From the UHGV virus genome UHGV-0142298: 37,340 nucleotides of DNA; one strand, given 5' to 3'. Below, piece by piece: positions 44 through 3,235 of the stretch. The translations under genes were made by a program, and so were the position numbers. Source of the DNA: a virus. The notes beneath the pieces were generated by a model, which was given only the letters and a program-made list of their open reading frames with translations, was not told the DNA's origin and searched no databases. The stretch's first letter is position 1. Each line of letters begins with the position of its first letter.

Positions 44-1120
44 GTGAGTATGGCTAACGCCTGGCTCAGATTATGGCATGACATGCCAAATGACCCTAAG
101 TGGCGAACAATTGCCAGGGTGTCAGGGCAGCCAATTGCAACAGTGATGGCAGTGTATATCCACCTCCTGGTGAGCGCGTCACGAAATGTCACGCGAGGTC
201 ACATTGATGTCACGACAGAAGATTTGGCAAGTGCGCTCGACGTGACAGAAGAGGTAATTGATTCAATTTTGCAGACGATGCAGGGGCGGGTACTTGATGG
301 TGATTTAATCACTGGATGGGAAAAACGCCAGGTGCTGAAAGAGGACAACGGTAATATTTCGCAAACCGCAAAATCTCCGGCAGAGCGCAAGAGGGCGCAG
401 CGAGAGAGGGAAAGAAAGCGGGAACAAAATGGCGATTGTCACGGCGAGTCACGAAATGTCACGCACATGTCACGACGAGTCACGACAGATAAAGATACAG
501 ATAAAGATACAGATCAAGAAGATCAAAACACTATGGTCCATGGCGTAAAAAACGCCGCGAACCAGGCAGGGGATGTTCAGACCGTCAATCTTGGTCAGCC
601 AGCAGGCACGACACCGGAAGCCGATTCAGCGTATGCGCTGAAAGCCGATTCGGGCGCTGTGCAGCAGGTGATGACCGCAAGGCAGGAGCAATCACACCAA
701 CTTCAGCAGCCTGAAGCCGATTCCGCCATTCAGCGGGAAGCCGATCGGGTAGTCCCGGAAAACACCGGGCAGCCTGTGGGACGAGTGGATTATCCTGATG
801 TGTTCGAACAGGTCTGGCGGGAATACCCGTTGCGTGCCGGGGCAAACCCGAAGAAATCCGCTTTCAGTGCCTGGAAGGCCAGATTACGCGAGGGGGTGCC
901 ACCAGAGGCCATGCTGGATGGCGTGAGGCGTTACGCAAGATACCTGGCGGCTACCGGGAAAACGGGAACGGAATTTGTTCAGCGAGCGACGACGTTTTTT
1001 GGACCGGACCGGAATTTTGAAAACCCCTGGTTGCTCCCGGTAAGCGGTACGAACAACCAGCGTTGTGTGAATCATATTTCTGAACCGGATACCGAAATTC
1101 CACCGGGCTTCAGGGGGTAA
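44..1120 (+). CDS. Phage replication initiator / replisome organizer (O-like), origin iterons inside the gene
   Basis: 358-aa ORF at the left of the late arm; two clusters of GTCACG motifs at about 10-bp spacing lie inside the coding sequence, as ori does inside lambda O; acidic low-complexity linker (DKDTDKDTDQEDQ). Domain family recalled, not searched. Confidence 0.6.
   Translation: MSMANAWLRLWHDMPNDPKWRTIARVSGQPIATVMAVYIHLLVSASRNVTRGHIDVTTEDLASALDVTEEVIDSILQTMQGRVLDGDLITGWEKRQVLKEDNGNISQTAKSPAERKRAQRERERKREQNGDCHGESRNVTHMSRRVTTDKDTDKDTDQEDQNTMVHGVKNAANQAGDVQTVNLGQPAGTTPEADSAYALKADSGAVQQVMTARQEQSHQLQQPEADSAIQREADRVVPENTGQPVGRVDYPDVFEQVWREYPLRAGANPKKSAFSAWKARLREGVPPEAMLDGVRRYARYLAATGKTGTEFVQRATTFFGPDRNFENPWLLPVSGTNNQRCVNHISEPDTEIPPGFRG
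178..214. repeat. Iteron cluster 1 (4 x GTCAC[G/A] at about 10-bp spacing), candidate ori
   Basis: GTCACG at 178, 188, 209 and GTCACA at 198; the 15-mer TCACGAAATGTCACG recurs at 448-462. Confidence 0.55.
438..484. repeat. Iteron cluster 2 (5 x GTCACG at about 10-bp spacing), candidate ori
   Basis: GTCACG at 438, 448, 458, 469, 479, followed by a tandem GATAAAGATACA repeat at 488-512. Confidence 0.55.
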
Positions 1121-2456: not shown

Positions 2457-3079
2457 TGGTTGACTACTTCAATGTATCCTGTATCAACAATGAAAATGTC
2501 CGTTCTTCGCTCACAGAATTAGTGCGACAGCTTCGCACCAAGAGCTGACATTGTAATATCCGACAGGCTATTGCCTGTCAGTTAACAGTTACGTGTTATA
2601 AAAGGTCAGGCGGGATCCTGACTAGGTGTGTTTAAAGAAGTGCTGGTGGTGAGCGGGTGTTGTGTCCAATTTCCACAGAAAAAAATCTGAGAAACTATAC
2701 CCAATAGTTGTATTGAATCACTGACGAGACAGCCTCATATTTATCAGGACTGGTGTACTTCCAATTCAGGAGGTTGTCGTGCTGGTTCTCAAATGTGCGC
2801 TAGCTATTGCGGCTGTAATGGCAATTTATTGTCTTGCTGTTGTTCTTACGGATCGCCTTTCTGATTGATTTTATATTGGCGAGGTGACGTGAGTTAAGTA
2901 GAATTGCTGCGGGTGCTTGAGGCTATCTGCCTCAGGCATGAACACCAACGGCAGATAGAGAAAAGCCCCAGTTAACATTACGCGTCCTGCAAGACGCTTA
3001 ACATTAATCTGAGGCCAATTTCATGCTAGACACATGTAGGTTAGCCTCTTACGTGCCGGAAGGCAAGGAGAAGCAGGCT

Positions 3080-3235
3080 ATGAAGCAGCAAAAGGCGATG
3101 TTAATCGCCCTGATCGTCATCTGTTTAACCGTCATAGTGACGGCACTGGTAACGAGGAAAGACCTCTGCGAGGTACGAATCCGAACCGGCCAGACGGAGG
3201 TCGCTGTCTTCACAGCTTACGAACCTGAGGAGTAA
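3080..3235 (+). CDS. hokD: Hok/Gef-family membrane toxin (type I toxin)
   Basis: 51-aa product MKQQKAMLIALIVICLTVIVTALVTRKDLCEVRIRTGQTEVAVFTAYEPEE has the Hok signature (TM helix, LTRK.LCE.R, EVAAF..YE); the ORF track extends it upstream to 3023 (mok-like leader frame); intrinsic terminator follows. Confidence 0.8.
   Translation: MKQQKAMLIALIVICLTVIVTALVTRKDLCEVRIRTGQTEVAVFTAYEPEE

What the first reader, a model, noticed from the sequence alone, without database searches (positions are those of the whole stretch)
178..520. Two iteron clusters at helical-turn spacing inside the replication gene, plus a tandem 12-bp repeat
GTCACG recurs four times around 178-214 and five times around 438-484 at 10-11-bp intervals, and a 15-mer is shared between clusters. 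This is the signature of an origin embedded in its initiator gene, as in lambda ori in O. The clusters are about 260 bp apart, so the origin may be bipartite. A tandem GATAAAGATACA repeat encoding DKDTDKDTD lies immediately after.
Basis: partly seen in the sequence, partly recalled or inferred. Interest (0 to 1): 0.45.

Follow-up and report, generated by a model that had tools for sequence, protein, structure and literature searches.

The report
Two-part replication origin inside initiator gene
Two arrays of a short repeat (GTCACG every 10-11 bases) plus an easily melted A-rich stretch, all inside a prophage replication-initiator gene, are almost certainly the phage's uncharacterised replication origin, because the same layout recurs in about 60 distant relatives and the repeat sequence changes in step in both arrays.

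Summary
Array 1 has three exact GTCACG plus one GTCACA (178-214) and an inverted copy at 241-246. Array 2 has five exact copies (438-484). The stretch shared between the arrays is 17 nt, not 15.

The gene (50-1120) encodes an uncharacterised initiator of an E. coli lambdoid prophage. It sits where lambda O sits but is not an O homologue.

The repeats are selected as DNA:
- The hexamer lies in all three reading frames.
- In 21 relatives (genome GC 34-69%), Val-Thr in array 1 is GTC-ACG 42 times out of 42.

In 80 related loci, an array at the array-2 position was found in about 60, and about 44 of those also have an array at the array-1 position. The repeat core differs between subfamilies (GTCACG, GTAACG, GAACGC, GCAACG, GTGACG) and changes in both arrays together.

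A purine-rich, low-GC tract follows array 2 in nearly all loci examined, even in 69%-GC genomes. In the window it is the least stable duplex of the gene (485-529).

Array 2 plus this tract is therefore a lambda-like core origin. Array 1, encoded in a surface loop of the predicted winged-helix domain, is a selected second binding array whose role is unknown.

Nothing was tested experimentally. Verdict: a new variant of a known kind, of moderate interest.

The parts
50..1120 (+). Replication-initiator gene (356 aa from ATG 50; the ORF opens at GTG 44). It has an N-terminal winged-helix-like DNA-binding domain (aa 1-95), a basic helix (aa 110-126), a disordered linker, and a C-terminal module ending in a DnaT-like tail.
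   Evidence: ORF list. PHROG 3729 at E 1e-256. No Pfam family reaches threshold. AlphaFold2 model of aa 1-150. In phage Tritos the 95%-identical gene follows cI, cro and a Rha-type regulator.
178..214 (+). Array 1: four direct units at 178, 188, 198 (GTCACA) and 209, spaced 10, 10 and 11 bp. They encode aa 44-55 (SRNVTRGHIDVT), a loop between helix 29-45 and helix 56-63 of the DNA-binding domain.
   Evidence: Codon test: Val-Thr = GTC-ACG 42/42, Gly-His = GGT-CAC 21/21 and Ser = TCA 20/21 in 21 relatives. The core co-varies with that of array 2.
241..246 (-). A single inverted copy of the core (CGTGAC on the + strand), encoding D64-V65-T66 in the turn between the two helices of the helix-turn-helix.
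   Evidence: In the GTCACG-class relatives whose protein has DVT here, Val is GTG in 17 of 17, against about 30% GTG among Val codons elsewhere in these genes. The full CGTGAC is present in 13 of 23.
438..484 (+). Array 2: five direct GTCACG units at 438, 448, 458, 469 and 479. They encode aa 130-145 in a predicted disordered linker. This is the proposed core set of initiator-binding sites of the origin.
   Evidence: An array of 3-8 units at 10-11 bp spacing at this position was found in 59 of the 80 related loci by the six-core test and in about 60 overall. The window carries a 21-bp (7-aa) insertion, equal to two extra units, relative to most homologues.
485..535 (+). A-rich, purine-biased tract of about 32% GC. 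It includes the tandem 12-mer ACAGATAAAGAT (485-519, 2.9 copies) and two GATC sites. This is the proposed DNA-unwinding element.
   Evidence: It holds the least stable 40-mer of nt 1-1300 (485-529, -43.4 kcal/mol against a gene mean of -57.2, SD 3.7). An equivalent tract (CAGATAAAGATA..., CAGAGACAGAGA..., GATAAGAGTAGAG...) follows array 2 in nearly all related loci examined, including 66-69% GC genomes, and is read in different frames.

Best explanation
Nt 178-535 hold the vegetative replication origin of this E. coli lambdoid prophage, written into the coding sequence of its own initiator.

Array 2 (five GTCACG units, 10-11 bp apart, 438-484) is the core set of binding sites for the initiator's N-terminal winged-helix domain. 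Because the units are direct, non-palindromic repeats one helical turn apart, the protein most likely binds head-to-tail along one face of the DNA and bends or wraps it. That strain would be relieved by melting of the adjoining A-rich, purine-biased tract (485-535). The C-terminal module would then bring in the host helicase machinery. In this phage that module ends in a DnaT-like tail and no P or DnaC gene follows. In about 40% of close relatives a lambda-P-like loader gene follows instead.

Array 1 (178-214, plus an inverted copy at 241-246) is a second array of the same sites about 230-260 bp upstream. It lies within the codons of a permissive surface loop of the DNA-binding domain. It is kept by selection on the DNA and probably joins array 2 in one looped or wrapped initiator-DNA complex.

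Shown here: the repeats, selection on them at the DNA level, their co-variation, the unstable tract and the predicted domain layout. Inferred: who binds the repeats, the melting, the looping and the helicase recruitment.
For: 1. The repeat is a DNA feature, not a protein repeat. The hexamer is read in all three frames (SR, VT, GH, CH). In 21 relatives of about 60-99% amino-acid identity and 34-69% genome GC, Val-Thr in array 1 is GTC-ACG 42/42 (background GTC 25%, ACG 24%), Gly-His is GGT-CAC 21/21 and Ser is TCA 20/21.

2. The layout is conserved. Arrays at about nt 120-180 and nt 340-450 of the gene recur across gamma-, beta- and alpha-proteobacterial loci.

3. The core co-varies. It differs by subfamily (GTCACG 23 loci, GAACGC 16, GTAACG 9, GTGACG 7, GCAACG 3, GGAACG 1). 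A locus's own array-2 core occurs on average 2.5 times in its own array-1 region (at least 2 copies in 44 of 59 loci), against 0.12 times in regions of other classes.

4. A low-GC, 70-90% purine tract follows array 2 in nearly all loci examined, even at 69% genome GC, and is read in different frames (DKDTDK versus PQIREDKK). In the window it is the least stable duplex of the gene.

5. Within 3 kb either side of the 23 GTCACG-class loci analysed for neighbours (a set that overlaps but is not identical to the 23 in point 3), the only gene family common to all is the initiator. C-terminal halves and neighbouring genes are swapped, so the N-domain is the only constant partner of the repeats.

6. 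The AlphaFold2 model gives a winged helix (H56-63, H67-77, hairpin 78-88). The array-1 peptide is a loop and array 2 lies in a disordered linker.

7. The gene occupies the lambda O position: cI, cro and a Rha-type regulator lie upstream in Tritos, S24 repressors upstream in 11 of 23 relatives and a lambda-P-like gene downstream in 9 of 23.

8. An unrelated initiator at the same position in phage HannyBb has its own repeats (GGTCAAAATG, four matching copies with a fifth degenerate one) followed by an A-rich tandem repeat. This shows the general design.

9. Three distant relatives carry a second array elsewhere, inverted and near the 5' end of the gene. In L066 it comes with an 8-aa insertion in another loop. 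This suggests recurrent selection for a second array.
Against: - There is no biochemical or genetic test of binding, unwinding or origin activity for any member of the family, and no paper on it was found.
- The N-domain model is of moderate confidence (pLDDT 74), and the structure search gave only weak winged-helix hits (E at least 0.24).
- About 12 distant homologues have array 2 only, so array 1 is not essential to the design.
- Its role as part of the origin, rather than as a control element, is not established.
- The distance between arrays is phased only at a 10.0-10.2 bp period (R 0.58). It is weak at 10.5 bp (R 0.31), and the loci are not independent.
- Conservation across relatives is partly shared descent.
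Confidence: 0.75

Rival explanations
1. Array 2 plus the A-rich tract is the origin, but array 1 is a control element rather than part of it. Initiator bound inside its own coding sequence could block transcription (autoregulation). It could titrate or pair with array 2 to limit initiation, as the second iteron arrays of plasmids P1 and F do. Or it could act as a fork barrier that makes replication unidirectional or triggers the switch to rolling-circle replication, as proposed for gp38 bound at SPP1 oriR.
For: - Array 1 is absent from about 12 distant homologues that keep array 2, so the core origin can do without it.
- It lies in the transcribed region upstream of the tract that would melt.
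- In three relatives the second array is inverted and placed elsewhere. That fits a protein-binding block or pairing site better than a fixed origin geometry.
- SPP1 gp38 binds a second repeat set (oriR) that is thought to stall forks (PMC6316719).
Against: - In the large subclade that has it, array 1 keeps the same orientation and a distance from array 2 close to a multiple of 10 bp, which fits one joint complex.
- Negative copy control is not an obvious need for a lytic-phase phage replicon.
- No sequence test can separate these roles.
Confidence: 0.25
2. The repeats are binding sites for some other DNA-binding protein, either a host factor or another phage regulator such as the CII/Rha-like or DUF977 protein, and not for the initiator itself.
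For: Binding was not tested. Lambda CII also recognises direct tetramer repeats 10 bp apart (own knowledge). Regulators are encoded next to the gene.
Against: - The same core class is found in hosts as different as Shigella, Entomomonas, Stenotrophomonas and Pseudothauera, while different classes occur within the Enterobacterales. The core therefore follows the initiator subfamily and not the host.
- No neighbouring gene family is shared by more than 11 of the 23 GTCACG-class loci.
- DUF977 is absent from most relatives.
Confidence: 0.06
3. The repeats have no function as DNA. They reflect a repeated peptide motif, or slippage-prone sequence tolerated in loops and linkers of the protein.
For: Both arrays encode similar peptides (SRNVT occurs in both). 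They lie in a loop and a linker, where insertions are tolerated, and copy number varies between relatives.
Against: - The hexamer occupies all three frames, so one DNA word gives different amino acids.
- Synonymous positions are invariant, 42/42 and 21/21, against about 6-10% expected.
- The encoded peptides differ completely between classes, while the 10-11 bp periodicity and the equality of cores between arrays are kept.
- The A-rich tract is conserved as DNA across reading frames.
Confidence: 0.03

Closest known systems
Phage lambda ori inside gene O, and the Stx-phage variants with six iterons
   Same: - Initiator-binding repeats lie in the middle of the initiator gene and are followed at once by an AT-rich, strand-asymmetric unwinding tract.
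- The gene lies in the early rightward operon after cI and cro.
- Extra repeat units add amino acids to the protein: 2 units and 7 aa here, 2 iterons and 13 aa in Stx phage O (PMC7466680).
- The N-domain plus origin form one exchangeable module, joined to different C-terminal modules.
   Different: - The protein shows no detectable homology to lambda O.
- The units are 10-11 bp direct repeats with a non-palindromic core of about 7 bp, not roughly 19-bp dyad-symmetric iterons bound by dimers.
- A second array lies 230-260 bp upstream, inside the codons of the DNA-binding domain.
- No P gene is present in this phage.
Bacillus phage SPP1 replisome organizer gp38 (G38P) with oriL inside gene 38 and a second site, oriR
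   Same: - The origin consists of direct repeats plus an AT-rich unwinding element inside the organizer's own gene.
- The same protein binds a second set of the same repeats elsewhere (PMC6316719).
- NCBI names the window's protein 'phage replisome organizer', and there is a weak match to Pfam PF09681.
   Different: - The Pfam match is below threshold (13 bits against a cut-off of 23.3).
- The second site here is about 250 bp away within the same gene, not about 13 kb away between genes.
- The host is Gram-negative, and the helicase is recruited through a different module.
Iteron plasmids with a second iteron array (P1 incC/incA, F ori2/incC), and phage P4 ori plus crr
   Same: Two separate arrays of the same initiator-binding repeat are present. 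One lies next to the unwinding region. The other acts in control (P1, F) or as a required cis enhancer through looping (P4). This comparison rests on my own knowledge.
   Different: - In those systems the arrays flank the initiator gene or lie kilobases away.
- Their repeats are 19-22 bp, or 8 bp in P4.
- Their initiators belong to other families.
- Here both arrays are in coding sequence.
Tandem head-to-tail binding of winged-helix proteins of the OmpR/PhoB type to direct repeats spaced 10-11 bp
   Same: Short direct repeats one helical turn apart are combined with a winged-helix reader, which implies head-to-tail binding on one face of the DNA. This is an analogy from my own knowledge.
   Different: Those proteins are transcription factors with two sites per dimer. 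There is no homology and no link to replication.

Membership tests
Lambda-type origin (ori within gene O) | Initiator-binding repeats lie inside the initiator gene, followed directly by an AT-rich unwinding tract | tested here: met
   Array 2 at 438-484, then a 32%-GC tract at 485-535 that holds the least stable duplex of the gene. The arrangement recurs in about 60 of the 80 related loci.
Lambda-type origin (ori within gene O) | The initiator is homologous to lambda O | tested here: not met
   No Pfam family reaches threshold for the whole protein or for either half. The PHROG matches are to other initiator families.
Lambda-type origin (ori within gene O) | Iterons of about 19 bp with internal dyad symmetry, bound by dimers | tested here: not met
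   The units are 10-11 bp. The conserved core (T/A)GTCACG(A/C) is not palindromic, and the flanking positions are weakly conserved.
Lambda-type origin (ori within gene O) | A P-type helicase-loader gene lies immediately downstream | tested here: not met
   In the window the next gene is DUF977. However, 9 of 23 same-class relatives have a lambda-P-like gene (PF06992, E 3e-10) in that position.
Phage replisome organizer, SPP1 G38P type (Pfam PF09681) | The N-terminal domain matches PF09681 above the curated cut-off | tested here: not met
   Window N-domain: E 0.1, 13.0 bits against a cut-off of 23.3. Only 1 of 31 diverse relatives matches, at E 0.0014. Remote homology remains possible.
Phage replisome organizer, SPP1 G38P type (Pfam PF09681) | The origin (direct repeats plus AT-rich tract) lies within the organizer's own gene, and a second repeat set is bound by the same protein | tested here: inconclusive
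   The sequence layout is met. Binding by the protein was not testable.
Iteron replicons with a second control array (P1 or F type) | A second array of the same iterons exerts negative copy-number control by titration or pairing | not testable with these tools
   A second array is present and co-varies with the first. Its effect on initiation cannot be computed.
DnaT (primosomal protein I) | Homology across the DnaT C-terminal ssDNA-binding domain (PF17948), not only the tail | tested here: inconclusive
   In the window's protein only the last 20-24 aa match the DnaT tail (E 0.019-0.065 against PDB sequences; NCBIfam 18 bits against a cut-off of 201). Many relatives with the same N-domain do carry PF17948.

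The most novel reading that the evidence does not exclude
The loop encoded by array 1 (aa 44-55), and the turn encoded by the inverted copy (aa 64-66), may themselves be part of the surface that reads the repeats. Concerted spread of the new unit through both arrays would let an initiator and its origin switch specificity together. This physically coupled 'site encodes its own reader' arrangement would explain how at least five specificity classes arose in one protein family.
Probability: 0.1. Interest if true: 0.8.

Novelty: new variant of a known kind. Interest (0 to 1): 0.5.

Why it matters
At least 80% of the 1,600-bp query spanning this gene and the DUF977 gene next to it is present in 1,533 of 5,426 complete E. 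coli genomes. NCBI's pipeline annotates the gene there only as 'hypothetical protein'. Relatives occur in prophages of Pseudomonas, Bordetella, Burkholderia-group bacteria, Sphingomonas and others. Its origin has apparently never been described.

The comparative data give three things:
- a precise, testable origin map (about 360 bp);
- a natural series of at least five repeat specificities, paired with initiator variants, for studying how an initiator and its sites change together;
- a clear case of regulatory DNA written into a protein's surface loop and linker.

The map also helps in annotating prophage replication modules, and in building lambda-dv-like vectors or predicting replication incompatibility between co-resident prophages.

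Tried and rejected
- **Pfam and NCBIfam on the whole protein.** Pfam gave nothing. NCBIfam matched only the DnaT tail.
- **PDB sequence searches.** The single protein matched only the DnaT tail. A 31-sequence profile of the N-domain found no relative.
- **Structure search of the N-domain model against the PDB.** Only weak winged-helix hits (CAP, FixK2, MarR, GntR; best E 0.24), so no named fold relative can be claimed.
- **Literature.** Searches for 'GTCACG' with 'iteron', for replisome organizer with iterons, and for lambdoid replication modules found no description of this origin.
- **Promoter and terminator scan of 1-1300.** One promoter-like site on the minus strand (462-435), no more than shuffles give, so an operator-and-promoter reading is not supported.
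- **Shigella phage 75/02 Stx.** It shares the C-terminal module but has another N-domain. No comparable repeats were seen in its gene, so it gives no information about this origin type.
- **Plasmid collection.** I looked for a natural mini-replicon carrying only this gene. Only large plasmids, chromosome-sized records filed as plasmids, and two 51-kb Pseudomonas circles were found.
- **Helical phasing between the arrays.** Suggestive at a 10.0-10.2 bp period but weak at 10.5 bp, and the loci are not independent. It is reported as inconclusive.
- **Protein-repeat explanation.** Rejected on reading frames and codon usage.
Full report
**1. What is in the sequence**

Nt 50-1120 (+) is a 356-aa ORF. 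Exact GTCACG lies on the + strand at 178, 188 and 209, with GTCACA at 198. A second group lies at 438, 448, 458, 469 and 479. One inverted copy lies at 241-246.

Within each group the units are 10 or 11 bp apart. A 17-mer, GTCACGAAATGTCACGC, is shared between the groups (178-194 and 448-464). Directly after the second group comes ACAGATAAAGAT in 2.9 tandem copies (485-519).

Only 16 other GTCACG occur on both strands in the remaining 36.7 kb. Eight exact plus-strand copies in 307 bp therefore has a Poisson probability of about 1e-14. The two-unit pattern GTCACG-N4-GTCAC occurs nowhere else in the window.

One of the 'four' copies in the first group is GTCACA. The shared stretch is 17 nt, not 15. 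The inverted copy was missed.

**2. What the gene is**

Pfam finds nothing. PHROGs place the protein in family 3729, 'replication initiation protein' (E 1e-256). The two halves match different further families, and the C-terminal half matches families annotated as helicase-loader or primosomal protein.

The window is an E. coli lambdoid prophage. A 1,600-bp query covering this gene and the next is 100% identical in several E. coli chromosomes, and at least 80% of it is present in 1,533 of 5,426 complete E. coli genomes. It is 95-96% identical to phages Tritos, Evi and others.

In Tritos the gene follows cI, cro and a Rha-type regulator, and is followed by a DUF977 (LygF/Ren-like) gene (Pfam assignment). 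It therefore occupies the position of lambda O, but no P or DnaC gene follows it.

None of the classical lambdoid phages appears among the tblastn hits of the N-domain in 50,697 phage records. No paper describing this origin was found.

**3. The repeats are selected as DNA**

The hexamer is read in all three frames: G-TCA-CG gives Ser-Arg, GTC-ACG gives Val-Thr, and (G/T)GT-CAC gives Gly-His or Cys-His. It is therefore not a peptide repeat.

A scan of species-representative genomes with an N-domain alignment returned 80 loci from gamma-, beta- and alpha-proteobacteria, with GC from 33% to 69%. I tested codon choice in array 1 in 21 loci of the GTCACG class:

- Val-Thr is GTC-ACG in 42 of 42 cases. 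Elsewhere in the same genes GTC is 25% of Val codons and ACG 24% of Thr codons.
- Gly-His is GGT-CAC in 21 of 21 cases.
- The first Ser is TCA in 20 of 21 cases.
- At the inverted copy, Val is GTG in 17 of 17 loci that have DVT there.

These relatives are about 60-99% identical in protein (most 60-70%) and come from a 34%-GC Entomomonas and a 69%-GC Pseudothauera alike. Shared descent alone cannot explain frozen synonymous sites.

**4. The layout is a family trait and the repeat core co-varies between the two arrays**

In most loci there are arrays of units spaced 10-11 bp at about nt 120-180 and about nt 340-450 of the gene.

| Repeat core | Loci |
|---|---|
| GTCACG | 23 |
| GAACGC (CGAACGC) | 16 |
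| GTAACG | 9 |
| GTGACG | 7 |
| GCAACG | 3 |
| GGAACG | 1 |

Whatever core a locus has in array 2, it also has in array 1. The locus's own core occurs on average 2.5 times in its own array-1 region (at least 2 copies in 44 of 59 loci). It occurs 0.12 times in array-1 regions of other classes (at least 2 copies in 2% of comparisons).

The core follows the initiator subfamily and not the host. Both the GTCACG and the GTAACG class occur within the Enterobacterales. The closely related Erwinia (L029) and Enterobacter (L027) genes differ by one base of the core in essentially all copies of both arrays.

Within 3 kb either side of 23 GTCACG-class loci, the initiator is the only gene family common to all. 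The next most frequent families are in 11 and 9 loci. These are an S24 repressor upstream and a lambda-P-like gene downstream. The C-terminal halves of the proteins are also swapped between relatives. The N-terminal domain is thus the only constant companion of the repeats, and the obvious candidate for the protein that reads them.

**5. The tract after array 2**

In the window, GC falls to 32% at 481-540 with a strong excess of A on the coding strand. The least stable 40-mer of the first 1,300 nt is 485-529, at -43.4 kcal/mol. The gene mean is -57.2 with SD 3.7.

In nearly all related loci examined, the lowest-GC 36-mer of nt 300-575 lies directly after array 2 and is 70-90% purine. It usually begins CAGATA(A/C)AGATA. 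This holds even where the genome is 66-69% GC (L020, L023).

The same DNA words are read in different frames in different subfamilies: ACA-GAT-AAA gives Thr-Asp-Lys, while CAG-ATA-AGA gives Gln-Ile-Arg. This tract too is therefore conserved as DNA. Repeats followed by such a tract are the arrangement of the lambda origin (PMC7466680) and of SPP1 oriL (PMC6316719).

**6. Where the arrays fall in the protein**

An AlphaFold2 model of aa 1-150, built from 69 sequences (mean pLDDT 74; above 87 for aa 11-40 and 51-90), gives:

- helices 4-14, 16-25 and 29-45;
- a loop at 46-55;
- helices 56-63 and 67-77;
- a beta hairpin at about 78-88;
- a basic helix at 110-126;
- disorder from 127 onward.

This is a winged helix. 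The weak structure matches are all winged-helix transcription factors. Pfam gives sub-threshold hits to HTH_Crp_2 (E 0.0097) and to the replisome-organizer N-domain PF09681 (E 0.1).

Array 1 encodes the loop at 44-55. The inverted copy encodes the turn between the two helices of the helix-turn-helix. Array 2 and the A-rich tract encode the disordered linker.

Across subfamilies the loop varies in sequence and in length (by 5 to 13 aa), exactly as the number and type of repeat units require. Only a central Arg-Gly is kept. Homologues without array 1 have a plain 'xxxxRGxLxGW' loop. The repeats have therefore been accommodated in the most permissive parts of the protein.

**7. How general array 1 is**

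About 12 distant homologues have array 2 only, with no other array within 3 kb. Three (L064, L066, L079) instead have an inverted array near the 5' end of the gene. In L066 it comes with an 8-aa insertion in a different loop.

Array 2 plus the tract is therefore the core, widely shared element. A second array has been gained or moved more than once, which argues that it is useful.

The distance between the arrays clusters near multiples of 10.0-10.2 bp (R 0.58 on 23 distinct distances) but not clearly at 10.5 bp (R 0.31). The loci are related, so I treat helical phasing as suggestive only.

**8. Mechanism proposed**

- Shown: the two selected, co-varying arrays, the unstable tract, the domain layout and the genomic position.
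- Inferred: the N-domain binds each unit head-to-tail on one face of the DNA.
- Inferred: the resulting complex, possibly joined by array 1 through a loop of about 250 bp, promotes melting of 485-535.
- Inferred: the C-terminal module recruits the helicase.

On the last step, the final 20-24 aa of the protein match the extreme C-terminus of E. coli DnaT. Many relatives carry a full DnaT-like ssDNA-binding domain. Others are followed by a lambda-P-like gene. DnaT's C-terminal domain docks on PriA and forms filaments on single-stranded DNA (PMC13377028). A plausible route in this phage is therefore recruitment of the host primosome to the melted tract, without a phage-encoded loader. This is a lead and not a result.

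**9. Alternatives**

- Array 1 could be an autoregulatory roadblock, a titration or pairing site, or a fork barrier like SPP1 oriR. I cannot exclude this and give it about 0.25.
- Another protein could read the repeats. This is unlikely because the core tracks the initiator and no other gene is constant (about 0.06).
- A purely protein-level or slippage explanation is contradicted by reading frames, codons and co-variation (about 0.03).

**10. Comparison with known systems, and verdict**

The origin works like lambda ori in O and like SPP1 oriL in gene 38, but it is not a member of either protein family by the tests run. The O-family test is not met, and PF09681 is below threshold.

It differs in three ways. 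Its units are short, direct and spaced one helical turn apart. It has a second array inside the codons of the DNA-binding domain. The family shows a set of repeat specificities that change in both arrays together.

I rate it a new variant of a known kind, with interest 0.5. The principle is textbook. The case is uncharacterised, very common in E. coli, and unusually well suited to studying how an initiator and its sites co-evolve.

Noticed in passing
window 1046-1117 (aa 333-356 of the initiator): The last 20-24 residues (…RCVNHISEPDTEIPPGFRG) match the extreme C-terminal tail of E. coli DnaT (…RDINSVSEPDNHIPPGFRG; PDB 6aep, 2ru8, 9zbt). No P or DnaC gene follows the initiator. Several relatives with quite different C-terminal modules end in the same tail. 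This suggests mimicry of DnaT to engage the host restart primosome.
   Followed up: partly
window 618-745: AAGCCGAT occurs four times (618, 642, 714, 738), always in the same reading frame, giving (E/K)ADS/R. The copies sit at the start of the C-terminal module. That module is shared at 82% identity with Stx phage 75/02, whose initiator has a different N-domain and keeps the same motif (L002 3070-3107). Only 1.3 copies are expected in the whole window. I could not tell whether this is a peptide motif or a DNA site.
   Followed up: partly
window 458-478 (aa 137-143): Relative to most homologues, the window's gene has a 21-bp (7-aa) insertion in array 2 that adds exactly two repeat units. E. albertii L005 has six units in array 1. 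Copy number is evidently variable. This parallels the two extra iterons and 13 extra aa of Stx-phage O proteins (PMC7466680).
   Followed up: partly
window 512-515 and 521-524: Two GATC (Dam) sites lie inside the A-rich tract. AGATCTAAA recurs in the equivalent tract of several enterobacterial relatives (L009, L015, L024, L029) and also in a Pseudomonas and a Sphingomonas locus. A link to Dam or SeqA control was not examined.
   Followed up: no
window 3023-3235 (+): A 70-aa ORF ends in a Hok/Gef-type toxin sequence (MKQQKAMLIALIVICLTVIVTALVTRKDLCEVRIRTGQTEVAVFTAYEPEE). The corresponding gene in phage Tritos is annotated as HokD toxin.
   Followed up: no
L003 2447-2600 (Escherichia phage HannyBb): An unrelated initiator in the same genomic position carries its own repeats, GGTCAAAATG, as four matching copies with a fifth degenerate one, spaced 23-24 bp. 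They are followed by an A-rich tandem repeat, TACAGAGAATA(C/A)AA. This is another apparently undescribed origin of the same design.
   Followed up: partly
plasmid records CP137943.1 and CP124671.1 (Pseudomonas aeruginosa, about 50.9 kb): Two circular 51-kb 'plasmids' encode a 70%-identical N-domain. They resemble Pseudomonas phages phi1 and P7869 and may be episomal phage genomes using this type of origin.
   Followed up: no
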